Shown: piece after piece, positions 2,263 through 17,319 of the stretch
Layout: every line of letters starts with the position of its first letter
Numbering within the stretch: the first letter of the stretch is position 1
The notes under the pieces: model-generated
The model's database searches: none
What the model saw: the letters and a program-made list of their open reading frames with translations, nothing else
What the model was told of the DNA's origin: nothing
Virus record (IMG/VR): IMGVR_UViG_3300045988_058951
Coordinates: 1 to 32,905 of that record
Origin: a virus
DNA: 32,905 nucleotides
Reading direction: 5' to 3' (one strand)
Made by a program: the position numbers and the translations under genes

Positions 2263-2674
2263 ATATCACCCTGTTATAGTATCCATACAATTCACAGACC
2301 TTGACCATAAAATCTTCGGTCACATCGAAAAACTCGGCAAGCTCCCATATTTCAAGGATGCCATTTTCAAAAGCCTCTATCAGCTCGTCCTCTGTGACGA
2401 GCTTTTTTATTGCCCATTTGTCCGCACGAAACTCCATTCGAGAACGAAGTTCCAAAGTCTTTTCATTATAAAATGCACCTGTTTCACAATGCCCCAGCTC
2501 GTGAGCCATTATGACAGTTTCTTCTGCTCTCGTGGCGATTTTCTTAGTGTCTACCACAATCGCACATTGCCCTCTATCGCTAATGGATATGGACTTCTGC
2601 TCATTTCTTAATTTTCCGTCGATAACTATAATGTCCCTGTCCTCCGCAAAGCTGCGTAGTTCAGCACTATCCAT
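2261..2674 (-). CDS. immA: ImmA/IrrE-family zinc metallopeptidase (anti-repressor protease)
   Basis: 137 aa with HEXXH in MAHELGHCETG. It lies immediately downstream of, and is co-oriented with, the XRE repressor, as in ImmR/ImmA pairs. AGAGG lies 8 nt upstream. Confidence 0.85.
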   Translation of the reverse strand: MDSAELRSFAEDRDIIVIDGKLRNEQKSISISDRGQCAIVVDTKKIATRAEETVIMAHELGHCETGAFYNEKTLELRSRMEFRADKWAIKKLVTEDELIEAFENGILEIWELAEFFDVTEDFMVKVCELYGYYNRVI

Positions 2675-2685
2675 ATGTACCGCCT

Positions 2686-3018
2686 CTATTCTTTGTTCTT
2701 TTTATCCTCTCTCATCTGACGTGCTATCTGAGCGTAATGTTTTACATCTGCCAACACATCATCATCAACGTCTGATGTTCCCCATAGGGCGAACTTGATG
2801 TTATCGTCGGTATCGTCTTCGGTCTTTTCACCCCTGAGAATATAATCGGTGGAAACGTCAAAATATTCACCTAATTTCAATAATGTTTCAAAATCAGGCT
2901 CTCGCTTTCCTAATTCATACAAACTGTATGCCTGTTTAGTGATATTAAGATAATCAGCTACAACCTGTTGAGATACTCCTTTTTCGTTTCTTAGCTGTCT
3001 TAATATATCGTTATACAT
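2686..3018 (-). CDS. XRE-family HTH repressor (CI/ImmR-like)
   Basis: HTH sequence VSQQVVADYLNITKQAYSLYELGKREP. The ORF-track TTG at 3027 abuts the GGAG (3028-3031). ATG at 3018 has a 9-nt spacing, so I moved the start there. Confidence 0.88.
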   Translation of the reverse strand: MYNDILRQLRNEKGVSQQVVADYLNITKQAYSLYELGKREPDFETLLKLGEYFDVSTDYILRGEKTEDDTDDNIKFALWGTSDVDDDVLADVKHYAQIARQMREDKKNKE

Positions 3019-3045
3019 ATTTTTCAACTCCTTGTCATTGATTAA

Positions 3046-3074
3046 ATTATATCAACTTTCTGTTGACTTGTCAA
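3046..3074 (-). promoter_or_regulatory. Perfect consensus promoter for the repressor operon (minus strand)
   Basis: On the minus strand, TTGACA is the reverse complement of 3069-3074, followed by a 17-nt spacer and TATAAT as the reverse complement of 3046-3051. The -35 box sits inside the palindrome TTGACTTGTCAA (3063-3074). Confidence 0.7.
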
Positions 3075-3183
3075 TAGTGTCATCAAATTGTTGTCTGAAT
3101 TTATTGAAAACTCACAAATTTATTTAATTTAGCAACAAAGTGTTGACATTTGAGTTTTTATATGTTATTATATAGACAACAAA
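3061..3183. promoter_or_regulatory. Putative operator set of the genetic switch
   Basis: TGTTGAC occurs at 3061-3067 and 3141-3147, each overlapping a -35 box. Palindromes: TGTTGACTTGTCAATA (3061-3076) and CAACAaagTGTTG (3133-3145). CAACAA words occur at 3133 (+), 3177 (+) and 3088-3093 (reverse complement). Confidence 0.45.
3143..3171 (+). promoter_or_regulatory. Early rightward promoter (TTGACA-17-TATTAT with TG extension)
   Basis: TTGACA at 3143-3148, TG at 3163-3164, and TATTAT at 3166-3171. It lies upstream of the cro-like gene. Confidence 0.7.
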
Positions 3184-3206
3184 ACGTTTACAAGGAGGTG
3201 AAATAA

Positions 3207-3482
3207 ATGAGAGAATGGTTAAAAACTCTCCGTGAAAACAAGCAGCTTACTCAACAGAATGTTGCCGATATGCTTGGAATATCAAAACAGTATTACCAAC
3301 TAATCGAAGCTCATGAAAGACAAAAGAAAATGGACATAACGCTTATGACAAAGTTATCTGACATTTTTGGAGTGTCTTTCAATGAGATCGTACAGCAGGA
3401 GAAAGCACTTACAGACAAGATTGCGTATAATGAATCTCTTGACATTAATTATACTCAGAATGTCGAAAATGTCAACAGCTAA
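3207..3482 (+). CDS. Cro-like XRE-family HTH regulator
   Basis: 91 aa with HTH LTQQNVADMLGISKQYYQLIEAHERQ. AGGAGG RBS. It is the first gene of the rightward operon, divergent from the repressor. Confidence 0.85.
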   Translation: MREWLKTLRENKQLTQQNVADMLGISKQYYQLIEAHERQKKMDITLMTKLSDIFGVSFNEIVQQEKALTDKIAYNESLDINYTQNVENVNS

Positions 3483-3512
3483 CAGTCCGATTGAATGGAC
3501 AGAAAATGAGGG

Positions 3513-4400
3513 GTGAAACATACGGACATACAAAAAGAGAAAAAGGCGATAGCTCGTTTGAAAGCTTTTGAGCCTGCTGACGGCTATAGACTTGCTTACA
3601 GTGGTGGAAAAGACAGTGATTGTATCAAGATATTAGCACAGCTTGCAGGAGTTAAATTTGAAGCGGTACACAATTTGACAACTGTTGATGCACCCGAAAC
3701 TATGAGATACATAAAATCACAGCCCGACATTCGCATAGAAAAAGCCTATGACAATGACGGTAATCACATTACAATGTGGAACCTGATCGTTAAAAAGCTA
3801 ATGCCGCCAACACGTCTTTTGAGATACTGTTGTGATGAACTCAAAGAACGTTCGGGTAGCGGCAAGGTGCTGATAACTGGTGTTCGCTGGGCTGAAAGTT
3901 CTAATCGTAAAAACAATTCAGGTGTCGTTCAGGTACTCAACAAGCCAAAGCATACGCAAAAATTTGCGGACAAGATAGGTGCTGAATATCATGTTTCACC
4001 AAAAGGCGGTATCATCTTGAACAATGATAACGACAATGCCAGACGTTTGGTCGAACACTGCTATGCAAAGCAGAAAACGATGATAAACCCGATAGTGGAT
4101 TGGGATGACAATGATGTATGGGATTTTCTTCATCACTACGGCTGCGAAATTAATCCGCTATATAGCTGTGGATTTAATCGTGTAGGCTGCATCGGCTGCC
4201 CTATTGCGGCAAGACATCAGCATGCAGAGTTTCAACGGTACCCGAAGTACAAGCAAGCATATATACGAGCGTTTGACAAAATGGTTGAACGGAGAGTAGC
4301 AATGGGAAAACCAACGTCTTGGAAAACAGGAACAGATGTATTTAAGTGGTGGGTTGGTGAAGATACTGCACAAATAAGCTTTGAAGATTTGGAGGCATAA
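3513..4400 (+). CDS. PAPS-reductase-fold / PP-loop ATPase family protein (IbrA/DndC-like, orphan)
   Basis: 295 aa with PP-loop LAYSGGKDSDCI and C-terminal Cys cluster CGFNRVGCIGCP. GTG is the first in-frame start after the stop at 3507-3509. The GAGGG directly abuts it, so the start is uncertain. Confidence 0.8.
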   Translation: MKHTDIQKEKKAIARLKAFEPADGYRLAYSGGKDSDCIKILAQLAGVKFEAVHNLTTVDAPETMRYIKSQPDIRIEKAYDNDGNHITMWNLIVKKLMPPTRLLRYCCDELKERSGSGKVLITGVRWAESSNRKNNSGVVQVLNKPKHTQKFADKIGAEYHVSPKGGIILNNDNDNARRLVEHCYAKQKTMINPIVDWDDNDVWDFLHHYGCEINPLYSCGFNRVGCIGCPIAARHQHAEFQRYPKYKQAYIRAFDKMVERRVAMGKPTSWKTGTDVFKWWVGEDTAQISFEDLEA

Positions 4401-5158: not shown

Positions 5159-5329
5159 GTGTCAGAGGGTATGTTTATAGCCGCAATAATCGGCGCAACA
5201 ATCGTGATACTAACAGTTTTCTACGCTGTAATACTGTTCATAGCATGTATCATAGACCAGCACAAATGGGAACATAAATGTAGCTGTGATGATGACAGTC
5301 ACGATGAAAAAAGCGACGGCAGAGTTTAG
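5159..5329 (+). CDS. Hypothetical small membrane protein
   Basis: TM segment FIAAIIGATIVILTVFYAVILFIACII plus a Cys/His/Asp tail. GTG at 5159 (AAAGGA 9 nt upstream) is preferred over ATG at 5171. The long ORF-track version starting at 5018 overlaps the previous gene and is unlikely. Confidence 0.5.
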   Translation: MSEGMFIAAIIGATIVILTVFYAVILFIACIIDQHKWEHKCSCDDDSHDEKSDGRV

Positions 5330-5331
5330 AT

Positions 5332-5760
5332 TCGCAATGCAACGGATTTGCTATGAATAGCATTGGCTACGGCAAAGAGAACCTGTGAACGACTGCGAAA
5401 TGCGAAGGCGCTGTTTTGCATAGCATGGAGCAACGGCATAGCAAGGCGAAGCACCGCGCTGGAATAGCATTGAAAGGCAAGGCAGAGGCATGGATTGGTC
5501 TAGCAAGGACTGGCAGAGCAACGGCCTAGCGTCGATAAGCAACGGCAAAGCTGTGAGGTGAGGAGCTAGGGCTAGGTATGCACAGCACCGCTTTGATAGG
5601 CAAAGGCGAAGCTAAACTGAGTTTCGATAAGCAATGGTGAAGCTAGGTTTTGACACGCAACGAAAGGCTAGGGCATAGCAGGGTGCAGATTGGCGATATT
5701 ACGCAGAGCAATGGAATAGCATCGCATCGATTGGCTACGGCACTGAGAAGCATAGAGACG
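5332..5760 (+). repeat. Non-coding purine-rich tract of degenerate interspersed repeats (AGCA-rich)
   Basis: All three plus frames are closed repeatedly. I count 15 AGCA. Recurring words:
- GAATAGCAT at 5355, 5462 and 5714.
- TGGCTACGGCA at 5364 and 5732.
- CGATAAGCAA(C/T)GG at 5533 and 5625.
- GCAGAGCAA(C/T)GG at 5513 and 5703.
- GCTAGG at 5565, 5571, 5642 and 5667. Confidence 0.8.
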
Positions 5761-5799
5761 CAAGGGAAAAAAATTAACATTTAACGGAGGTCAAAAGAC

Positions 5800-6405
5800 A
5801 TGAGCATGAAAAAAATCAAAGTAAAGTTGACGTTCACCGAAGAGATTTTGGGAACGGCAAACGCAACAACCACAATCCACGATGAGTATATCGCATCGAA
5901 AGCACCTGACGCAAAGAGCCGTGAGGAAGAGATAGCCGCACTTGGTGTAGCGGAAGTGGTCGAGAAGTCCGTGACAGTATTTCCAACATTGGAAGACGGC
6001 ACACCATTTCTCTGGGACTATCAGGTAAAAGGCTTCTTCAAAGACGCTTGCGGCGTTCTGAAAAAGGTATCAGGCACGGCAAGCTCCAAAATTAAGGCGT
6101 ACAAGAAAGAGATTGACGGACTTATCTTCGTCGAGGAGCGCAAGATACCATACGAATTCAAAGGCGGCATGGGCGAATGTCAACGGCCATTGAGGGCAAG
6201 CACGCCACAGGGCGAACGTGTTGCACTGGCACACTCTGAAACAGTACCTGCAGGAGCGACAGTTGAGTTCACAATCCAGATTCTGAAAGACGATATGGAA
6301 ACAGCCGTAAGAGAGTGGTTGGACTACGGCAAGCTGAGAGGTATCGGTCAGTGGCGTAACAGCGGCAAAGGTCGCTTTGAGTGGGAGGAAATTGAGAATG
6401 GATAA
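5800..6405 (+). CDS. Hypothetical protein, first gene of recombination/replication module; possible RRM/RAMP-like fold
   Basis: 201 aa with GGAGG 9 nt upstream. The C-terminus GIGQWRNSGKGRFEW fits G-h-G-x5-G-x-G followed by a terminal beta strand. The DGTPFLWDYQVKGFFKDA segment resembles the P-x7-KG segment of type III Cas7 proteins. This is pattern recognition only. Confidence 0.7.
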   Translation: MSMKKIKVKLTFTEEILGTANATTTIHDEYIASKAPDAKSREEEIAALGVAEVVEKSVTVFPTLEDGTPFLWDYQVKGFFKDACGVLKKVSGTASSKIKAYKKEIDGLIFVEERKIPYEFKGGMGECQRPLRASTPQGERVALAHSETVPAGATVEFTIQILKDDMETAVREWLDYGKLRGIGQWRNSGKGRFEWEEIENG

Positions 6406-6790
6406 GAAACTCACGAGCGAAGATATCATAAAGGTGGCTAAATGCTGTATAGTAGACAACTGTGGACCATGCCCACTTATGGGTACGGATAATTGCATCA
6501 CTGATTTCATGAAGCATATTCTCGAATACATGAAAAACGAGCCTGCACCTGCGGCAACAGGCACAAGCTCGGAGGTATCAAAAGATACCAGTTCAATATT
6601 ACACCTTGATGATAGCACAAAAGCAGCGATTTGTCAAGCATATGATACCGTAGACGAAGCCTGTACAGATATAATCGGTATCTATGAAGTAATGTCTGAG
6701 CGAGAACATAGAGCCTTTGACATTGGCGAGGCGTATGGAAAGATATGCAGCACAAGGGATAAGCTTGAAAATATGAGAGGAGAGAACTAA
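6398..6790 (+). CDS. Hypothetical protein with N-terminal Cys cluster
   Basis: ATG at 6398 lies 9 nt after GGGAGG and overlaps the previous stop (ATGGATAA). Cys cluster CCIVDNCGPCPLMGTDNC. The ORF-track TTG at 6377 is less likely. Confidence 0.65.
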   Translation: MDKKLTSEDIIKVAKCCIVDNCGPCPLMGTDNCITDFMKHILEYMKNEPAPAATGTSSEVSKDTSSILHLDDSTKAAICQAYDTVDEACTDIIGIYEVMSEREHRAFDIGEAYGKICSTRDKLENMRGEN

Positions 6791-9727: not shown

Positions 9728-11316
9728 TGATGAATTTAAGACCATATCAAAACGAGGCTAAGCTTGCTATACTCGAACAATGGTCTGAGGGAATAAATAA
9801 GGTCCTTGCAGTTCTGCCCACAGGAACGGGAAAGACAATACTTTTCTCGGCTGTTACGGAAGAATGCGTGCGGCAGGGTAAGCGTGTGCTTATCCTTGCC
9901 CACAGAGGCGAGCTGCTCGACCAGGCGGCGGACAAGCTTATGAAGTCAACAGGGCTTGGCTGTGCCACCGAGAAAGCAGAGCAAAGTTGTTTAGGCTCTT
10001 GGTATCGTGTAGTAGTAGGCTCAGTTCAGACCCTTATGCGTGAGAAAAGGCTCAAAGGCTTTTCGGAAAATTACTTCGATACCATTATCATTGACGAGGC
10101 TCATCACGCTATCTCAGACGGCTATCAGAGAGTGCTTGACCATTTTCCTGAAGCTCAGGTACTTGGGGTAACGGCTACACCTGACAGGGGCGATATGAAG
10201 AACTTAGGCTCGGTGTTTGACAGCCTTGCATATGAATACACCCTGCCGCAGGCTATCAAAGAGGGCTATCTTTCACCGATCAAGGCTATCACCATACCGC
10301 TGAAACTTGACCTTTCAGGAGTATCAACTCAGGCAGGAGATTTCAAGGCAAGTGATATCGACACGGCACTTGACCCATATCTTTATCAGATAGCTGATGA
10401 AATGCTCAAATACTGCAAGGAGCGCAAGACAGTTGTGTTCCTGCCGCTTGTCAAGACCTCTCAGAAGTTCCGTGATATCCTTATCAGCAAGGGCTTTAAC
10501 GCCGCTGAGGTCAACGGAGAAAGCACAAACAGAGCGGAGATATTAGAAGCTTTCGACAAGGGCGAATACAACGTGCTGTGCAACTCAATGCTCCTCACAG
10601 AGGGCTGGGACTGTCCGTCAGTTGACTGCGTTATCGTACTAAGACCAACAAAAGTGCGTGGACTTTACTGTCAAATGGTAGGCAGAGGCACAAGACTTTG
10701 CGAGGGAAAGACAGAGCTTTTGCTGCTTGATTTCCTGTGGCACACAGAACGCCACGAGCTTTGCAGACCTGCACACCTTATCTGTCAGAATGAAGAGGTC
10801 GCTGAGAAAATGACCGAAAACCTTGCCAATGAGGCAGGCTGTGCAGTAGATATCGAAGAGGCAGAAAAACAGGCAAGTGAGGACGTTGTGGCACAGCGTG
10901 AAGAGTCTTTGGCAAAGCAGCTCAAAGAAATGAAAACACGCAAGCGAAAGCTCGTTGACCCTTTGCAGTATGAAATGTCAATACAGGCTGAGGACTTGTC
11001 CTCTTACGTTCCTGCTTTTGGCTGGGAGTGTGCTCCTGCTACCGACAAGCAGAAGGCAAAGCTTGAAAAGCTGGGCATTTTCCCTGACGATATAGACAAC
11101 GCAGGCAAGGCAAAGCTTATCCTTGACCGGCTTGAAAAGCGCCGCAATGCAGGACTTACCACTCCAAAGCAAATAAGGCTGCTTGAAAGCAAGGGCTTTG
11201 AGCACGTTGGCTCTTGGAGCTTTGACAGTGCAAGCAAAATGATAGCCCGTATCTCTGCCAACGGCTGGAGAGTGCCGAGAGATATCGACCCGAAGACATA
11301 CACACCTGAGAACTAA
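9727..11316 (+). CDS. Superfamily-2 DEAD/DEAH-box DNA helicase
   Basis: ATG at 9727 overlaps the upstream TGA (TGATG). Motif I LPTGTGKT, motif II IIIDEAHH, motif VI QMVGRGTR. The C-terminus carries two tandem repeats of about 35 aa. Confidence 0.88.
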   Translation: MMNLRPYQNEAKLAILEQWSEGINKVLAVLPTGTGKTILFSAVTEECVRQGKRVLILAHRGELLDQAADKLMKSTGLGCATEKAEQSCLGSWYRVVVGSVQTLMREKRLKGFSENYFDTIIIDEAHHAISDGYQRVLDHFPEAQVLGVTATPDRGDMKNLGSVFDSLAYEYTLPQAIKEGYLSPIKAITIPLKLDLSGVSTQAGDFKASDIDTALDPYLYQIADEMLKYCKERKTVVFLPLVKTSQKFRDILISKGFNAAEVNGESTNRAEILEAFDKGEYNVLCNSMLLTEGWDCPSVDCVIVLRPTKVRGLYCQMVGRGTRLCEGKTELLLLDFLWHTERHELCRPAHLICQNEEVAEKMTENLANEAGCAVDIEEAEKQASEDVVAQREESLAKQLKEMKTRKRKLVDPLQYEMSIQAEDLSSYVPAFGWECAPATDKQKAKLEKLGIFPDDIDNAGKAKLILDRLEKRRNAGLTTPKQIRLLESKGFEHVGSWSFDSASKMIARISANGWRVPRDIDPKTYTPEN

Positions 11317-11326
11317 GGAGAAGTGA

Positions 11327-13534
11327 ATGGATAACACAAATTTGCTTAAAATGCTTGAATACATAGACCCTGCAAGCTGTGATTATCAAGAATGGGTCAA
11401 TGTGGGAATGGCTCTCAAGCACGAGGGCTATTCCGTGAACGATTGGGACAGTTGGTCAAGGTCAGACAGCCGTTATCACAGCGGTGAGTGTGAACACAAG
11501 TGGCAAGGCTTTAACGGCAATGCTCAGCCCGTGACCGCAGGAACTATCGTGCAAATGGCAAAGGAAAGAGGATACAGCCCACATGAGTTTAAGGCATACG
11601 ATTGGGACGGCGAGATAGTTGCAGAAGAAAGCAGCCCCCTTGTAAACGGCGGTGAGGGCATACCGATCACCGAGCCTGCCCAATGGGATCCTGTCAAGGA
11701 AATAGTCACATATCTTGAAACACTCTTTGAAGCAGGAGAGAACGTGGGCTATGTTACGCAAACGTGGGAAACAGAGAAGGACGGCAAGACCAAGTATCTG
11801 CCTACAAAGGGCTGCTGTGACAGGACGGCAGGGGAGCTTATCAAGAGGCTTGGCGAATGTAACGGCGACATTGGTGCGGTGTTTGGCGACTACAAGGAAG
11901 AAGCCGGAGCGTGGATCCGCTTCAATCCTCTTGACGGCAAGGGCGTAAAGAACGAGAATGTAACAGACTACCGCTATGCTCTTGTTGAAAGCGACAGTAT
12001 GCCTATAGAACAGCAGAATGCTGTGATGAGAGAGCTTGAACTTCCTATCGCTGTGCTTGTATACAGCGGTGGAAAGAGCGTTCACGCTATCGTCAAGATA
12101 GACGCTCCCAACTATGATGAATACCGCAGGCGTGTTGATTTTCTTTACAAGGTCTGCAAGGAAAGTGGTCTTGACATAGATAAACAAAACCGCAATCCCT
12201 CACGTCTTAGCCGTATGCCAGGCGTTATGAGAAACGGCAAGAAACAGTTCATCATTGACAAGAACATAGGAAAGGAGAGTTTTTCGGAATGGAAAGATTA
12301 CATAGAGAGTATCAATGATGATCTCCCCGACCCTGAGAGCCTGAGTGCTGAGTGGGACAACCTGCCTGAGCTTGCTCCGCCACTTATTGACGGCGTCCTC
12401 AGACAGGGCCACAAAATGCTCATTGCAGGTCCGTCAAAGGCAGGCAAGTCTTATGCACTTATCGAAATGTGCGTGGCGATAGCTGAGGGGGTCAAGTGGT
12501 TTGGCTGGCAATGCACCAAGGGGAAGATACTATACGTCAACCTGGAGCTTGACAGAGCATCTTGTCTGCACCGTTTCAAGGACGTGTACACCGCAATGCA
12601 CCTAGAACCTGATAACCTCAACAGCATAGACATATGGAACTTGCGAGGTCACAGCGTACCAATGGACAAGCTTGCACCAAAGCTTATACGCCGAGCAAGC
12701 AAGAAGAATTACATTGCCGTGATAATAGACCCTATCTACAAGGTCATAACAGGTGATGAGAACTCAGCAGACCAAATGGCGCACTTCTGCAACCAGTTTG
12801 ACAAGGTATGCACAGAGCTTGGCTGTGCGGTCATATACTGCCACCACCACTCAAAGGGAGCGCAGGGCGGTAAGCGTTCAATGGACAGAGCCAGCGGTTC
12901 AGGAGTATTCGCCCGTGACCCTGACGCACTTCTTGACCTTTCAGAGCTTGACATTTCAGACAGCCTTTACAAGCAGCAGGAGGACGAAACTGTTTGCCGT
13001 ATCTGTGAGGACTGGATGAGGAGATTTTACAGAAATACTGATGACCTTTGTTCACAAGACGATCTTGTTACGCCGTCAAAAATGCTGGAGATAACCCACA
13101 AGTATCTGCACCCGAACTCATACAAGCTTATGATGACCGACATAGACAAGGCTAAGCTTGCAGTAAGAAACCGCACGGCATGGCGTATAGAGGGTACTCT
13201 GAGAGAGTTCCCGAAATTTGCTCCACTCAATATGTGGTTTGATTATCCTGTTCACAGAGAGGATACTGTGGGCGTGCTTAAAGACTGCGAGGTAGAGGAC
13301 ATCTCACCGAATTGGAAAAAGAATTTCAGCAAGAAGAAGACCAATGAAGACCGCAGCAAGGAGCGCAAGGAGAGCATTGAAACAGCTTTCAGCGGTGTGC
13401 AGGAGAACGGCAAGTGCCGCATTTCTGAGCTGGCGGAGTACATAGGAAAGAGCGAAAAGACCGTTGGAAGATACCTCAAAGAGCATGGTGGCTTTTGGAT
13501 AGAAGAGGGAGAATGCGGCTTAAAAGCTCAGTAG
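11327..13534 (+). CDS. Primase-polymerase fused to RecA/DnaB-like (AAA_25-type) ATPase
   Basis: 735 aa. PriCT-2-like N-terminus (QEWVNVGMALKHEGYSVNDWDSWS). AEP-type motifs ALVESD and YSGGKSVHAIV. Walker A AGPSKAGKSY and Walker B-like AVIIDPIYK. HTH-like C-terminal tail. Confidence 0.8.
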   Translation: MDNTNLLKMLEYIDPASCDYQEWVNVGMALKHEGYSVNDWDSWSRSDSRYHSGECEHKWQGFNGNAQPVTAGTIVQMAKERGYSPHEFKAYDWDGEIVAEESSPLVNGGEGIPITEPAQWDPVKEIVTYLETLFEAGENVGYVTQTWETEKDGKTKYLPTKGCCDRTAGELIKRLGECNGDIGAVFGDYKEEAGAWIRFNPLDGKGVKNENVTDYRYALVESDSMPIEQQNAVMRELELPIAVLVYSGGKSVHAIVKIDAPNYDEYRRRVDFLYKVCKESGLDIDKQNRNPSRLSRMPGVMRNGKKQFIIDKNIGKESFSEWKDYIESINDDLPDPESLSAEWDNLPELAPPLIDGVLRQGHKMLIAGPSKAGKSYALIEMCVAIAEGVKWFGWQCTKGKILYVNLELDRASCLHRFKDVYTAMHLEPDNLNSIDIWNLRGHSVPMDKLAPKLIRRASKKNYIAVIIDPIYKVITGDENSADQMAHFCNQFDKVCTELGCAVIYCHHHSKGAQGGKRSMDRASGSGVFARDPDALLDLSELDISDSLYKQQEDETVCRICEDWMRRFYRNTDDLCSQDDLVTPSKMLEITHKYLHPNSYKLMMTDIDKAKLAVRNRTAWRIEGTLREFPKFAPLNMWFDYPVHREDTVGVLKDCEVEDISPNWKKNFSKKKTNEDRSKERKESIETAFSGVQENGKCRISELAEYIGKSEKTVGRYLKEHGGFWIEEGECGLKAQ

Positions 13535-15315: not shown

Positions 15316-15607
15316 TGAGGAAAGTGTAGATGTACCTCAGACTTGTACTTTCATTGAAGTCACCTCCAATTTTTTTAAGCCCCGTAAGGGGCTTATGCAG
15401 AACGTGAGTGCATGAGCTTACGTTCTGTTCCATACGGTCAGTTGGTTGCCCGTAAAAGCCAACACATAATATTTGAACCGCCGCCAAGCTTTCGGGCTTC
15501 GGGCGGTGTATGCAGGTCGAGAGCGAGCCACCGCTCAGATCTGCTCCACCATTTACAAAACTCCTTAAATTATTTTCACAAGAGGCACTCCGAAAGGGGT
15601 GTCTTTT
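15316..15607 (+). ncRNA. Structured late leader / candidate ncRNA of about 290 nt
   Basis: A chain of hairpins:
- 15315-15340.
- 15377-15394 (7 bp, GTAA loop).
- 15398-15427 (8 bp).
- 15441-15463.
- 15477-15507 (TTCG-type loop).
- 15512-15544.
- 15584-15603 (8 bp, GAAA loop) followed by TTTT.
The overlapping ORFs translate to implausible Arg/Ser/His-rich sequence. Confidence 0.45.
15584..15607 (+). terminator. Terminator-like hairpin just upstream of the HNH RBS
   Basis: Stem GGCACTCC/GGGGTGTC (two G-U pairs), loop GAAA, then TTTTGCGTT. It ends about 10 nt before the GGAGG of the HNH gene. Confidence 0.5.
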
Positions 15608-15627
15608 GCGTTGCACGGAGGTATACA

Positions 15628-15963
15628 ATGCCAGTACCACGCCCCGACCGAAACGGCTCACATCAAACACAGTTCCGCATCAACAAGAAGAAAATCTATG
15701 CTACCCAAACAGTCTGCGGTATCTGCGGTAAACCTGTTGATTTTTCACTAAAGTATCCGCACCCACTGTCAGCTTGCATAGATCATATCATACCCATAGC
15801 AAAAGGCGGTCACCCCTCAGCCCTTGAAAACCTACAGCTTGCTCATTGGTGTTGCAATCGTCAGAAATCTGATAAATTGGTAGAAAAACAGGTGTTTGAC
15901 CAAAAGGTTGAAGCCGTATCCAACCGTGTTTTACCGCAAACTTTTGATTGGAAGTCGATTTAA
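15628..15963 (+). CDS. HNH endonuclease (packaging-associated)
   Basis: 111 aa from ATG 15628, with GGAGG 6 nt upstream. Motifs CGICGKPVD...DHIIPIAKGGHPSALENLQLAHWCCNRQKSDK. The upstream in-frame extension from 15412 is non-protein-like. Confidence 0.88.
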   Translation: MPVPRPDRNGSHQTQFRINKKKIYATQTVCGICGKPVDFSLKYPHPLSACIDHIIPIAKGGHPSALENLQLAHWCCNRQKSDKLVEKQVFDQKVEAVSNRVLPQTFDWKSI

Positions 15964-16092
15964 GCACGAATTTTCACGAAGTTTCCAAATTTTTGAGTAT
16001 ATGTGGGGCATACCACCCCCTTTGAGGGGCAATTTCACGTTCACGCCTTCATTGTGTAAATATCTCGCAGAATTTTAAACAGGAGCAAAAAT

Positions 16093-17319
16093 ATGACAAA
16101 CGAAATATACGGAATTGACTATCTGCGACGCAGACTTGCCGATAAACAAACACGAGTGCTATTGAGATATAAGTACTACGAAATGAAAAATAACACACAG
16201 GACTTTTCAAGCCTTGCTCCCGAAAAATTCAAGGGGCTAAAGGAAACTGTCGGTTGGTGTGCGAAAGCAGTCGATAGCCTTGCTGACCGCTTGCAGTTCG
16301 ATGAATTTCAAAATGATGAATTTGATCTGAGCGAAATATTCTTGTCAAACAATCAGGATATACTCATTGACTCTGCGGTGCTTTCGGCTCTTATCTCAGC
16401 GTGTTCTTTCGTCTATATCCGAGAAGATAACGGCTATCCTCGCCTGCAGGTAATTGACGGCTCAAATGCTACCGGTATCATTGACCCTGTGACAAATCTG
16501 CTTACCGAGGGTTATGCAGTGCTTGAGCGTGACAGCATGGGTGTTGTAAAGACAGAGGCTTATTTCATGGCAGGCATGACGGAAATATACTCCCATGGTG
16601 TGCTTGTTCAGCGTATACCAAACGCTGCACCATATGCACTGCTCGTGCCAATAATATATCGTCCTGACGCAAAGCGTCCGTTCGGTCACAGCCGTATTTC
16701 AAGAGCCTGCATTGCCTATACGCAGACAGCTCTCAGAACTATAAAACGCTCTGAGGTGTCGGCTGAATTTTACAGCTTTCCTCAAAAATATGTGCTTGGA
16801 TTATCTGAGGACGCAGAGTTCAATAACCGCCTTGCTACGATATCCTCTTTTCTGAACTTCACAAAAGACGGCGACGGCGATCACCCCATTGTAGGACAGT
16901 TTCAACAGCAATCAATGACGCCATATACTGAACAGCTGAGAACGCTTGCAAGCCTGTTCGCAGGAGAAACAGGGCTGACCCTTGATGACTTGGGCTTTGC
17001 CACCGAAAACCCCTCCAGCGCAGAGGCTATCAAGGCAGGTCATGAAAACCTACGATTAACGGCACGCAAGGCGCAGAGGACGTTCGGAACAGGTCTGCTC
17101 AATGTGGGCTATCTTGCCGTTTGTATCCGTGACAGATACGCATATCAAAGAGATGCGTTCAGAGATACAAAAGTCGCATGGTTGCCTATCTTCGAGCCTG
17201 ACGCTGCGGCACTCTCGGGTGTGGGCGACGCTATCTTGAAGATAAACCAGGCTGTGCCTGACTATCTTGGTGCAAGAAACATAAAGGCTCTCACAGGTAT
17301 GGAGAGTGACGGCAAATGA
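16093..17319 (+). CDS. Portal protein (SPP1 Gp6-like)
   Basis: 408 aa. Size, sequence pattern (for example RPFGHSRISRA) and its position directly before a MuF/gp7-type gene support the call. Confidence 0.8.
   Translation: MTNEIYGIDYLRRRLADKQTRVLLRYKYYEMKNNTQDFSSLAPEKFKGLKETVGWCAKAVDSLADRLQFDEFQNDEFDLSEIFLSNNQDILIDSAVLSALISACSFVYIREDNGYPRLQVIDGSNATGIIDPVTNLLTEGYAVLERDSMGVVKTEAYFMAGMTEIYSHGVLVQRIPNAAPYALLVPIIYRPDAKRPFGHSRISRACIAYTQTALRTIKRSEVSAEFYSFPQKYVLGLSEDAEFNNRLATISSFLNFTKDGDGDHPIVGQFQQQSMTPYTEQLRTLASLFAGETGLTLDDLGFATENPSSAEAIKAGHENLRLTARKAQRTFGTGLLNVGYLAVCIRDRYAYQRDAFRDTKVAWLPIFEPDAAALSGVGDAILKINQAVPDYLGARNIKALTGMESDGK

What the first reader, a model, noticed from the sequence alone, without database searches (positions are those of the whole stretch)
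5332..5760. A non-coding, purine-rich tract of about 430 bp with degenerate interspersed repeats in the middle of the early operon
In a genome where genes otherwise touch or overlap, this stretch has no credible ORF. Stops I located by hand:
- TAG at 5358, 5421, 5439, 5465, 5501, 5527, 5567, 5573, 5597, 5644, 5669, 5676, 5717 and 5753.
- TGA at 5354, 5386, 5471, 5554, 5559, 5594, 5618, 5638, 5651 and 5744.
- TAA at 5536, 5613 and 5628.
These are spread over all three frames.

The plus strand is strongly A+G-rich, and AGCA occurs 15 times. Longer words recur:
- GAATAGCAT three times.
- TGGCTACGGCA twice. The first and last copies form an imperfect direct repeat of about 27 nt bracketing the tract (5355-5381 versus 5714-5749, the latter with a 9-nt insertion).
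- CGATAAGCAA(C/T)GG twice, 92 nt apart.
- GCAGAGCAA(C/T)GG twice.
- GCTAGG four times, two of them in tandem.
- Local runs with 6-nt periodicity (GGCAAA GGCGAA GCTAAA, and GCTAGG GCTAGG).

The tract has no strong promoter or terminator, so it should be transcribed within the early mRNA. It ends at the RBS of the unknown 201-aa gene.

Possible roles:
- A protein-binding RNA or DNA array (sponge, assembly platform or second origin).
- A substrate for the downstream protein.
- A decayed repeat-containing gene. Fragments such as WNSI...GYG recur in different frames.
Basis: partly seen in the sequence, partly recalled or inferred. Interest (0 to 1): 0.7.

Follow-up and report, generated by a model that had tools for sequence, protein, structure and literature searches.

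The report
Phage VIPR guide-RNA repeat array
The "non-coding purine-rich tract" is a chain of about 87 five- or six-base repeats next to a small Cas7-like protein gene, which together match a VIPR system, a phage RNA-guided DNA-binding system related to CRISPR that was first described in 2026, so this is a new example of a very recently known kind.

Summary
Window 5305-5765 has no ORF, is A+G rich and is full of AGCA/GGCA words. The repeats are not loosely interspersed. The whole tract parses into 72 pentamers and 15 hexamers, and about 95% of these units end in G (z = 12 against dinucleotide shuffles). The mean period is 5.15-5.2 nt, and there is no 3-nt coding signal.

The 201-aa gene immediately downstream (5800-6405) folds as a minimal Cas7-type RAMP with a conserved G-loop, GIGQWRNSGKGRF. 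About 90% of 80 independent genomic relatives, mostly gut Clostridia, carry the same kind of array within 1.5 kb of this gene, upstream or downstream.

This pairing of a RAMP gene with a pentamer-repeat RNA array matches VIPR systems (bioRxiv 10.64898/2026.04.26.720920 and .720927). There, Vipr protomers polymerise one per pentamer on a vrRNA and use the variable bases to bind DNA of competing phages.

Differences from the characterised SUSP1 type:
- The unit is YNN(R)G rather than YNNGG.
- A CNANGG hexamer occurs every 4-6 pentamers, giving a 31-nt super-period.
- The array is long and continuous, with no recognisable tail.

Expression, processing and targets are untested, and my target searches were inconclusive.

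Verdict: new member of a known kind. The origin and pseudogene readings are rejected.

The parts
5305..5765 (+). Candidate vrRNA array: 72 pentamers with consensus Y-N-N-R-G (written from the G: R-G-C-A-N), 15 hexamers and 2 irregular units. Mean period is 5.17 nt. The first-stage finding (5332-5760) lies inside it.
   Evidence: Unit parse (z = 12.1 against shuffles). Periodicity. It is the only place in the window with this signal. As RNA it is less structured than shuffles, z = +1.78. No Rfam match.
5314..5740 (+). Hexamer 'punctuation' units C-N-N-N-G-G. They start at 5314, 5340, 5361, 5367, 5403, 5431, 5457, 5483, 5519, 5540, 5601, 5632, 5668, 5709 and 5735, and are mostly CAAYGG, CTACGG or CAAAGG. 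Spacing is 21-41 nt (61 once, and two adjacent hexamers at 5361 and 5367). They produce the 26/31/36-nt super-period.
   Evidence: Clade-wide hexamer profile is C67 A61 A67 N G75 G97 (%), with a mode of 4-5 pentamers between hexamers. This is far from a geometric distribution.
5786..5790 (+). Ribosome-binding site (GGAGG) of the RAMP gene, 9 nt before its ATG.
   Evidence: Read from the sequence.
5800..6405 (+). vipr candidate: a 201-aa minimal Cas7-like RAMP with G-loop G181-I-G-Q184-W185-R186-N-S-G-K-G-R-F193.
   Evidence: AF2 model, pLDDT 74.6, pTM 0.72. Foldseek against PDB gives 140 hits at E <= 1e-3, and the top 50 listed are Cas7-type chains or complexes: type VII Cas7, Csm3, Cas7-11, III-D, IV-A. 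Profile against PDB sequences hits type VII Cas7 at E = 3.5e-6. hhalign to the SUSP1 Vipr gives E = 1.6e-4, colinear over the full length.
6398..6790 (+). 130-aa Cys-rich ORF whose start overlaps the vipr stop (ATGGATAA). It is only a weak candidate for a vipr-accessory (vap) gene.
   Evidence: Present directly after vipr in close relatives, but only 38-76% identical there, and absent from distant relatives. No Pfam, PHROG, PADLOC or NCBIfam hit.
5159..5329 (+). Upstream 56-aa membrane-protein ORF. Its last ~25 nt already belong to the repeat chain.
3143..3171 (+). Nearest strong sigma-70-like promoter on the + strand (TTGACA-17-TATTAT), the probable start of the early transcript that would carry the array and vipr. 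This is inferred.
   Evidence: No promoter-like or terminator-like site lies on the + strand between 3775 and 6765.

Best explanation
The tract is the guide-RNA (vrRNA) array of a VIPR system (Viral Interference Programmable Repeat). The 201-aa gene that follows it encodes the Vipr protein, a minimal Cas7-like RAMP.

**Shown here**
- The tract is a strand-specific chain of about 87 units of 5 or 6 nt with an almost invariant G.
- The adjacent protein has a Cas7/RAMP fold and a conserved G-loop.
- The two features stay physically linked across a large family of gut-Clostridia prophages.
- The array turns over faster than the gene.

**Inferred from the published SUSP1 system**
- The array is transcribed, here probably as part of the early operon.
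- Vipr protomers polymerise along the RNA, one per unit. They sequester the conserved G-pyrimidine positions and display the variable bases.
- The resulting helical filament binds double-stranded DNA of competing phages or prophages through gapped base pairing and silences it.

**Open for this clade**
- Which positions are read.
- How the regularly spaced hexamers are accommodated.
- Where individual vrRNAs begin and end.
For: 1. **Repeat anatomy.** Over 5305-5765 there are 72 pentamers and 15 hexamers. In 5332-5765, 78 of 82 units end in G, and z = 12.1 against dinucleotide shuffles. The period is 5.15-5.2 nt in the window and in 11 of 12 divergent relatives, with no 3-nt signal. The words occur on one strand only. 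The RNA is less folded than shuffles.
2. **Protein.** The AF2 model matches Cas7-family chains only: 8z4j_J at 2.2e-7, then Csm3, Cas7-11 and Csf2, with 140 hits at E <= 1e-3. Sequence-level hits fall on the G-loop region: type VII Cas7 at 3.5e-6, PADLOC Cas7_IIId at 1.4e-3 and TIGR01903 at 0.023.
3. **Link to a bona fide Vipr.** The SUSP1 vipr gene was located at KT454805 28474-29061(-) from the residues named in the structural paper. hhalign of a 60-sequence profile of the window family against it gives E = 1.6e-4 over 166 colinear columns. The G-loop aligns as GIGQWRNSGKGRF / GVGDWRPRFGRF. W178 and R179, which contact G2 and Y3 in SUSP1, are conserved as W185 and R186. D177, which contacts G1, is Q184. 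This fits an array in which G2 is about 92-95% conserved while position 1 is relaxed.
4. **Linkage.** Every tract-containing viral relative examined has the array next to the gene. It lies upstream in most of them and downstream in L066, L071, L073, L076 and L077. In 80 independent genome loci at 53-71% aa identity, 72 have a 5.05-5.25-nt periodic array within 1.5 kb: 57 downstream, 11 upstream and 4 on both sides. The gene itself never shows the signal.
5. **Turnover.** Among 61 relatives, the array has a median 82.5% identity over 85% coverage (range 14-100%), with module-sized indels of about 70-97 nt. The vipr gene has 90.9% identity over 99% coverage.
6. **Context.** The window is a temperate phage with no CRISPR repeats or other cas genes.
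7. **Literature.** The published definition of VIPR is a phage RAMP flanked by intergenic YNNGG pentamer-repeat RNAs, with NNNGG, YNNNG and NNNNG variants and continuous 'staggered' arrays in other types.
Against: - There are no expression or processing data.
- I could not recognise a conserved structured 3' tail or pseudoknot like that of SUSP1 vrRNAs, and there are no hammerheads.
- The unit deviates from GGY/NN. Position 1 is R/N rather than G, and the first 'variable' base is A in 47-66% of units.
- Between close relatives only G2 is clearly more conserved (13% of positions vary). Y3, N4, N5 and R1 vary at 31-41%. The 'conserved GGY / hypervariable NN' contrast is therefore weak here.
- Similarity to the SUSP1 Vipr is remote (hhalign probability 50%).
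- The candidate accessory gene is not conserved.
- No convincing natural target was found. Four 20-base gapped patterns and one 18-base pattern against IMG/VR gave one hit extending to 22/22 bases (L082). Its skipped base is not at the codon wobble position, and roughly 0.03-0.5 such hits are expected by chance. One further 18/18 hit did not extend.
- A local scan showed no excess for any skip rule.
Confidence: 0.85

Rival explanations
1. The array is bound by the Cas7-like protein, but it is not a set of programmable guides. On this reading the RNA is a long scaffold or sponge on which the protein forms a filament of about 90 protomers, with some other role such as sequestering the protein, protecting the early mRNA, or acting as a decoy for host type III/I CRISPR RAMPs.
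For: - Arrays are continuous and 200-1100 nt long, with no recognisable tails or unit boundaries.
- N4 is A-biased, and the variable positions are not clearly more variable than Y3.
- No natural targets were found.
Against: - Arrays turn over by module gain and loss and by substitution while the G register is kept. This is what is expected of specificity-bearing sequence.
- The published VIPR types include continuous 'staggered' arrays and relaxed YNNNG/NNNNG units that are still treated as guides.
- My target search was shallow: exact matches only, one pairing model and a small local database.
Confidence: 0.1
2. The tract is a DNA element: an origin of replication or iteron array (or another protein-binding site array) recognised as double-stranded DNA by the phage replication proteins encoded downstream. 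GC steps would fall every half helical turn (5.17 bp = 31 bp / 3 turns / 2).
For: - The tract lies just upstream of a replication/recombination module: AAA_23 ATPase, Sak4-like protein, ResIII helicase and PriCT_2/AAA_25 primase-helicase.
- The mean period of 5.17 equals half of a 10.3-bp turn.
Against: - The tract travels with the RAMP gene, not with the replication genes. Relatives have quite different downstream modules (ERF/SSB-type, other helicases) yet keep the array next to the RAMP gene, on either side of it.
- The array is strictly strand-asymmetric and G+C-richer than its flanks. It has no AT-rich unwinding element.
- The pentamer array plus RAMP pairing is already explained by a characterised RNA-level mechanism.
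Confidence: 0.03
3. The tract is a decayed gene for a repeat-containing protein (a pseudogene), or a gene read in an alternative genetic code.
For: Some relatives show 50-76-aa ORFs inside the tract.
Against: - Fourier power is 0.01 at 3.0 nt against 2.14 at 5.15 nt.
- All three stop codons occur in all three frames, so no single recoding rescues a frame (positions from the finding, checked).
- The same ORF-free architecture is maintained in more than 150 loci at 53-99% protein identity. This is incompatible with decay.
- The short ORFs in relatives are frame accidents of the same repeat. ORFs that abut the RAMP gene in other relatives are unrelated genes.
Confidence: 0.01

Closest known systems
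VIPR systems (Vipr RAMP + vrRNA). Characterised examples are type II of Escherichia phage SUSP1 and a Pseudomonas fulva prophage (bioRxiv 10.64898/2026.04.26.720920 and 10.64898/2026.04.26.720927).
   Same: - It is phage-encoded.
- It has a single small RAMP of about 200 aa, with an RRM core, a G-loop carrying W-R, and a hairpin thumb.
- There is no CRISPR array and there are no other cas genes.
- The intergenic flank of the gene carries a same-strand array of pentanucleotide repeats with a conserved G-pyrimidine core and variable bases.
- The array can lie upstream or downstream of the gene.
- The array varies between close relatives.
   Different: - The unit is Y-N-N-R/N-G: only the second G is near-invariant, and the first variable base is mostly A. 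SUSP1 has Y-N-N-G-G.
- A C-N-A-N-G-G hexamer occurs every 4-6 pentamers, giving a mean period of 5.17 nt and a 31-nt super-period. My parse of the SUSP1 vrRNAs gave runs of 12-16 pure pentamers.
- The array is one continuous chain of 460 nt (up to 1.1 kb in relatives). SUSP1 has discrete ~100-nt vrRNAs, each with a ~40-nt structured tail.
- The G-loop reads Q-W-R instead of D-W-R.
- No conserved vap gene is present.
- The hosts are gut Clostridia.
- Which of the seven published types it belongs to could not be determined, because the figures and data files are not held.
Class 1 CRISPR effector backbones (Cas7/Csm3/Cmr4 filaments on crRNA).
   Same: The protein has the same fold family and G-loop. 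Protomers polymerise along a single-stranded RNA at a fixed register and flip out bases at regular intervals.
   Different: - The register is 5 nt (occasionally 6) rather than 6.
- The RNA itself is a short-period repeat rather than a unique spacer flanked by repeat handles.
- There is no Cas5, Cas6, Cas10, Cas8 or Cas11, no adaptation genes and no CRISPR array.
TRAP (trp RNA-binding attenuation protein) binding sites: (G/U)AG triplets separated by 2-3 nt (from my own knowledge).
   Same: An RNA made of a conserved 2-3-nt core repeated every 5-6 nt, read by an oligomer with one subunit per repeat.
   Different: The protein fold is unrelated. TRAP has 11 repeats wrapped around a closed ring, and its function is attenuation of host operons. 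No TRAP-like gene is present here.

Membership tests
VIPR system | A stand-alone minimal RAMP protein (single RRM core, glycine-rich loop, thumb hairpin), about 20 kDa. | tested here: met
   - The protein is 201 aa.
- The AF2 model matches Cas7-type RAMPs only.
- The G-loop GxGxWRNxGxGRF is nearly invariant across 60 divergent homologues.
- The beta-hairpin 125-149 and the helical insert 25-56 have moderate to low confidence.
VIPR system | Homology of the protein to established Vipr proteins. | tested here: inconclusive
   hhalign of a 60-sequence profile against the SUSP1 Vipr gives E = 1.6e-4, probability 50%, colinear over the full length, with G-loop W-R aligned. Pairwise BLASTP gives E = 0.62. 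The published seed sequences and phylogeny were not available to me.
VIPR system | Tandem pentanucleotide repeats (YNNGG, or the published variants NNNGG, YNNNG, NNNNG; at least 4 units) in the intergenic flank of the RAMP gene, on the same strand. | tested here: met
   - Over 5305-5765 there are 72 pentamers and 15 hexamers.
- Of the 82 five- and six-nt units in 5332-5765, 78 end in G, 53 in RG, and 59 start with Y.
- z = 12.1 against shuffles.
- The array ends 35 nt before the gene and is on the same strand.
- It fits the YNNNG variant rather than strict YNNGG.
VIPR system | Conserved repeat core versus hypervariable NN positions between related loci. | tested here: inconclusive
   Between close relatives G2 varies at 13% of positions. 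Y3 and N4 vary at 31%, N5 at 38% and R1 at 41%. In hexamers GG varies at 8% and the fourth base at 77%. Only the G is clearly protected. N4 is A-biased.
VIPR system | A conserved structured 3' tail capping each vrRNA (type II), or the alternative published architectures (staggered arrays, hammerhead-interspersed arrays, single vrRNA). | tested here: inconclusive
   - No tail-like conserved structured element was recognised.
- The RNA fold is weaker than shuffles.
- There is no hammerhead or any other Rfam match.
- The continuous chain resembles the 'staggered array' class as worded in the preprint, but that figure is not held.
VIPR system | Absence of CRISPR arrays and of other cas genes, with a two-gene locus (vipr + vap). 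| tested here: met
   No direct repeats of 22 nt or more within 150 nt anywhere in the window. The neighbouring genes are phage regulatory and replication genes. The vap part is weak: the 130-aa gene after vipr is not conserved beyond close relatives.
VIPR system | Viral or proviral location. | tested here: met
   The window carries an integrase, ImmA/HTH regulators, portal, large terminase, tape measure and endolysin. There are 196 confirmed relatives in IMG/VR. Genomic relatives are mostly in gut Clostridia MAGs.
VIPR system | vrRNAs are expressed, are about 100 nt long and co-purify with Vipr. | not testable with these tools
   This needs sRNA-seq and a protein pull-down.
VIPR system | The variable dinucleotides match DNA of competing mobile elements under the one-nucleotide-skip rule. 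| tested here: inconclusive
   - Five IMG/VR scans were run (four 10-unit and one 9-unit window, exact match). One hit extended to 22/22 bases over 11 units, at L082 11370-11401. It is not in wobble register and is near chance expectation.
- One further 18/18 hit did not extend, and three scans were empty.
- A local scan of 1500 nine-unit windows under two pairing models and four skip rules showed no excess.
CRISPR-Cas (class 1) | A repeat-spacer array with 20-50-nt repeats, plus multi-subunit effector genes. | tested here: not met
   No such repeats. The RAMP gene is the only cas-like gene.
Phage replication origin / iterons | Co-inheritance with the cognate initiator gene, and an AT-rich unwinding region. 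| tested here: not met
   The array stays with the RAMP gene while the replication modules differ. The tract is 50-55% G+C against 41-47% in its flanks.

The most novel reading that the evidence does not exclude
This gut-Clostridia clade may be a distinct architectural variant of VIPR whose code differs from the published one. At least 1953 protein clusters at 50% identity belong to the clade.
- Arrays are continuous chains of up to about 200 units.
- Only one G per unit is fixed.
- A C-N-A-N-G-G hexamer is inserted every 4-6 pentamers, so the sequence super-period is 31 nt, or six units.
- That super-period equals one turn of the six-protomer-per-turn Vipr-vrRNA filament seen for SUSP1.

If so, the extra nucleotide would be a once-per-turn structural adaptation or a unit boundary. 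It would allow very long filaments or short 5-6-unit guides, and the target-reading rule (which bases pair, and what happens at hexamers) would have to be worked out afresh.
Probability: 0.3. Interest if true: 0.7.

Novelty: new member of a known kind. Interest (0 to 1): 0.5.

Why it matters
VIPR was described only in 2026, as an RNA-guided DNA-recognition system that uses a gapped code and may predate CRISPR. This locus shows that a very large family of temperate phages of human and animal gut Clostridia carries such systems in their early operons, with long arrays. They could therefore be a major, still unannotated layer of phage-phage interference in the gut.

The locus also offers a natural variant for testing how general the published code and filament geometry are. 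It has a relaxed repeat core, regularly spaced hexamers, and Q instead of D at the G1-contacting G-loop position.

In practice, genome annotators should stop treating such purine-rich ORF-free tracts as pseudogenes or origins. A 5.1-5.2-nt G periodicity next to a ~200-aa protein ending in GxGQWRNxGxGRF identifies them.

Tried and rejected
- **Structured ncRNA.** Rfam at gathering and at E-value thresholds found nothing. There are no tRNA or tmRNA genes. The RNA fold is weaker than shuffles.
- **Classical tandem repeat.** TRF found nothing.
- **CsrA-type sponge.** Dropped on a hand count only (no tool run): GGA occurs about 6 times in the sequence read, against roughly 15 expected from base composition.
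- **Stop-codon recoding.** Rejected, because all three stop codons occur in every frame.
- **Homology of the tract in GenBank phages.** There was no blastn hit.
- **DNA half-turn phasing or origin.** Considered because 5.17 x 2 = 10.3, and rejected on the linkage evidence.
- **Naming the protein from family libraries.** PHROGs and Pfam found nothing. Only weak C-terminal RAMP hits came from PADLOC, NCBIfam and PDB sequences, which led to the structure prediction.
- **Accessory gene.** No accessory gene is conserved across the clade.
- **Target hunting.**
  - Exact 7-unit matches in 1.3 Mb of related phage DNA gave only low-complexity hits.
  - A nine-unit scan tolerating mismatches, under two pairing models and four skip rules, gave no differential signal.
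  - Five IMG/VR pattern scans gave one borderline hit, one non-extending hit and three empty results.
- **VIPR type assignment from the preprint.** This failed because the supplementary files and figures are not held.
Full report
**1. The observation**

The window is a temperate phage or prophage.
- On the minus strand it carries an integrase (130-1299), an ImmA-like protease (2261-2674) and an HTH repressor (2686-3027).
- A + strand early operon follows, and then portal, large terminase, tape measure and endolysin genes.
- Between a 56-aa membrane-protein ORF (5159-5329) and a 201-aa ORF (5800-6405) there is no credible ORF on either strand.

The tract is 62% purine. AGCA occurs 15 times against 7.5 expected, and ATAGCA 6 times against 0.5 expected. 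These words are almost absent in reverse complement.

**2. What the repeats really are**

Distances between GC dinucleotides in the tract are sharply quantised at 5, 10/11, 15/16, 21, 26, 31, 36 nt and so on. The pattern stays coherent beyond 120 nt, in the window and in 12 divergent relatives.
- Fourier analysis gives a best period of 5.15-5.20 nt in 12 of 13 tracts.
- Power at 3.0 nt is essentially zero, so the tract is not coding and is not a decayed gene.

A dynamic-programming parse splits 5305-5765 into 72 pentamers, 15 hexamers and 2 irregular units.
- In 5332-5765, 78 of 82 units end in G, 53 end in RG and 59 start with a pyrimidine.
- The parse score lies 12 standard deviations above dinucleotide-preserving shuffles.
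- The seven strongest 200-nt windows for this periodicity in the whole 32.9-kb window all fall in 5301-5800.

The unit is Y-N-N-R-G. Written from the G it is R-G-C-A-N, with A in about two thirds of units at the fourth position.

The hexamers are C-N-N-N-G-G, mostly CAAYGG. In 76 arrays from independent genomes they recur every 4-6 pentamers, which is far from the geometric spacing expected by chance. This produces the 26/31/36-nt super-period and the non-integer mean period.

Tandem Repeats Finder sees nothing here, because only about two of five positions are constrained. As RNA the tract folds less well than shuffles, z = +1.78. It matches no Rfam family.

**3. The neighbouring gene**

The 201-aa protein has no Pfam or PHROG match. 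Its C-terminal GIGQWRNSGKGRF looked like a RAMP glycine-rich loop, and three libraries gave weak hits there:
- Csm4, E = 0.26
- PADLOC Cas7_IIId, E = 1.4e-3
- TIGR01903, E = 0.023

An AlphaFold2 model built from 32 homologues has pLDDT 74.6 and pTM 0.72. Against PDB it matched only Cas7-type chains: type VII Cas7 (8z4j_J, E = 2.2e-7, TM 0.58), Csm3, Cas7-11, type III-D and IV-A backbones. There were 140 hits at E <= 1e-3.

The family is very large. It has more than 7875 clusters at 90% identity and 1953 clusters at 50% identity with E <= 1e-3. A 60-sequence profile hits the type VII Cas7 sequence at E = 3.5e-6.

**4. Linkage of tract and gene**

The protein retrieved 196 IMG/VR contigs.
- Relatives with 96-99% identical protein all have the tract, but with different lengths and content.
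- Relatives at 59-71% identity have unalignable tracts of 400-1000 nt made of the same words.
- Where another gene abuts the RAMP gene upstream, the array lies downstream instead.

An independent set of 80 loci came from a collection with one genome per species. They are mostly gut Oscillospiraceae, Ruminococcaceae and Lachnospiraceae MAGs, at 53-71% identity.
- 72 of the 80 have a strong 5.05-5.25-nt G periodicity within 1.5 kb of the gene: 57 downstream, 11 upstream and 4 on both sides.
- The gene itself never shows the signal.

The genes beyond the pair are mosaic, with different replication and recombination modules. The 130-aa ORF after the RAMP gene is poorly conserved or absent. The conserved unit is therefore the RAMP gene plus the array.

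Among 61 close relatives the array has a median 82.5% identity over 85% coverage (range 14-100%), with indels of about 70-97 nt. The gene has 90.9% identity over 99% coverage.

**5. Identification**

A literature search found bioRxiv 10.64898/2026.04.26.720920 and its structural companion 10.64898/2026.04.26.720927. They define VIPR systems as follows.
- A phage-encoded minimal RAMP (Vipr) is flanked by intergenic vrRNAs made of 9-16 YNNGG pentamers.
- Variants NNNGG, YNNNG and NNNNG exist, as do 'staggered' continuous arrays and hammerhead-interspersed arrays in other types.
- Vipr protomers bind one per repeat. They sequester G-G-Y and display N-N.
- The displayed bases pair with double-stranded DNA while skipping every third target base, and this silences competing phages.

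As a positive control I located the SUSP1 locus. It is KT454805 28474-29061(-), 195 aa, and residues H17, K33, E71, M72, R138, C173, D177, W178 and R179 match the paper's numbering. My parser returns its vrRNAs as runs of 12-16 pure pentamers followed by a tail.

The window family's profile aligns to the SUSP1 Vipr over its full length, with E = 1.6e-4 and probability 50%. The G-loop aligns as GIGQWRNSGKGRF / GVGDWRPRFGRF.
- In SUSP1, W178 and R179 contact G2 and Y3. They are conserved here as W185 and R186.
- D177 contacts G1 and is Q184 here.
- This fits an array in which the second G is 92-95% conserved while the first position is relaxed. This correlation is an inference.

There are no CRISPR-type repeats or other cas genes in the window.

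I conclude that 5305-5765 is the vrRNA array and 5800-6405 the vipr gene of a VIPR system.

**6. How it most likely works here**

Shown: the repeat register, the RAMP fold, the linkage and the turnover.

Inferred from SUSP1:
- The array is transcribed. There is no promoter-like or terminator-like site between 3775 and 6765 on the + strand, so it is probably part of the early transcript starting near 3143-3216.
- Vipr polymerises on the RNA, one protomer per unit.
- The filament binds DNA of competing phages through the variable bases.

Unknown: the vrRNA boundaries, the role of the hexamers and the pairing rule.

One speculative point: the 31-nt super-period equals six units, and the SUSP1 binary filament has six protomers per turn.

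**7. Tests that did not support the guide model**

- Between close relatives only the G is clearly protected. It varies at 13% of positions, against 31-41% at the other four.
- Gapped target searches were inconclusive.
  - Four 20-base patterns and one 18-base pattern under the published rule were run against IMG/VR.
  - One match extended to 22/22 bases over 11 units, at L082 11370-11401, in codons of a 174-aa gene in a head module. Its skipped base is at codon position 2. I estimate 0.03-0.5 such hits by chance.
  - One 18/18 match did not extend, and three scans found nothing.
  - Local scans showed no excess for any skip rule.
- These searches were shallow and assume a rule that may not hold for this clade.

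**8. Rivals**

- An origin or iteron array is contradicted by the linkage data, the strand asymmetry and the G+C content.
- A pseudogene is contradicted by the periodicity and by conservation of the ORF-free state in about 160 loci.
- A non-guide scaffold or sponge bound by the same protein remains possible, at about 10%.

**9. Novelty**

The kind has been known since April 2026. This locus is a new member from a very large gut-Clostridia prophage clade.

Three features differ from the characterised type II system: the relaxed YNN(R)G unit, the regularly spaced hexamers, and long continuous arrays without a recognisable tail. They may or may not already be covered by the seven published types, whose figures I could not see. 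I therefore file it as a new member of a known kind and give about 0.3 probability that it is a genuinely distinct variant.

Noticed in passing
L072 (IMGVR_UViG_3300021399_000937) 2337-3500: A second RAMP gene of a different type lies about 900 nt upstream of the window-type vipr (4001). It encodes 247 aa, and its G-loop CGIGEWRP resembles the SUSP1 Vipr CGVGDWRP (BLASTP 2e-8). It is followed by a G/T-rich GGY/NN pentamer tract with an exact 5-nt period. This looks like two VIPR systems of different types in tandem on one viral contig.
   Followed up: partly
window 6538-6637, minus strand: A strong sigma-70-like promoter (TTGACA-17-TATCAT with TG, 6637-6609) is followed by a 15-bp-stem terminator with a T-run (6571-6538). 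Both are antisense to the 130-aa ORF after vipr. This could be a ~60-nt antisense small RNA.
   Followed up: no
L023, L036, L060 (about 3510-3760): In some close relatives a 68-aa ORF (MQSKFYTEQKH...) sits inside the repeat array and splits it in two.
   Followed up: no
L164 = Hydrogenobaculum phage 1 (KP282676) 15454-16224 and downstream: The only named phage with a weak match to the protein (29.5% identity over 138 aa, E = 0.2). It encodes a 256-aa protein with a G-loop-like GHSGWRTARYGRY. A ~700-nt G/A/T-rich ORF-poor region follows, with weak 5.0-5.2-nt G periodicity (power up to 2.1). It may be a distant VIPR.
   Followed up: partly
window 5323-5335 and 5606-5618: A 13-nt inverted repeat, 92% complementary and 270 nt apart, lies within the array (AGTTTAGATTCGC / GCGAAGCTAAACT). 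Its significance is unknown and it may be chance.
   Followed up: no
L089 (Faecousia MAG), about 2650-2700: Where the array lies downstream of vipr, it ends at a clear intrinsic terminator (AAAAAGAGCCCCGGCACCCCGCGGCTCTTTTTTG). This suggests that vipr plus the array form one transcription unit in that arrangement.
   Followed up: no
window 11051-11250: The next-strongest 5.2-nt periodic signal in the window (power 0.84, against 2.0 for the array) lies inside the ResIII helicase gene. It is probably a coincidence of coding sequence.
   Followed up: no
L082 (IMGVR_UViG_3300012020_000201) 11370-11401: A 22/22 gapped match (11 units, one-base skip) to array units 5483-5539, at codons 11-22 of a 174-aa gene in a head-morphogenesis module of a 37% G+C phage. 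The register is not wobble-phased, and the match is close to chance expectation.
   Followed up: partly
window 3513-4400: A PAPS-reductase-like gene (phrog_424, E = 4e-38) is the second gene of the early operon, upstream of the VIPR locus.
   Followed up: no
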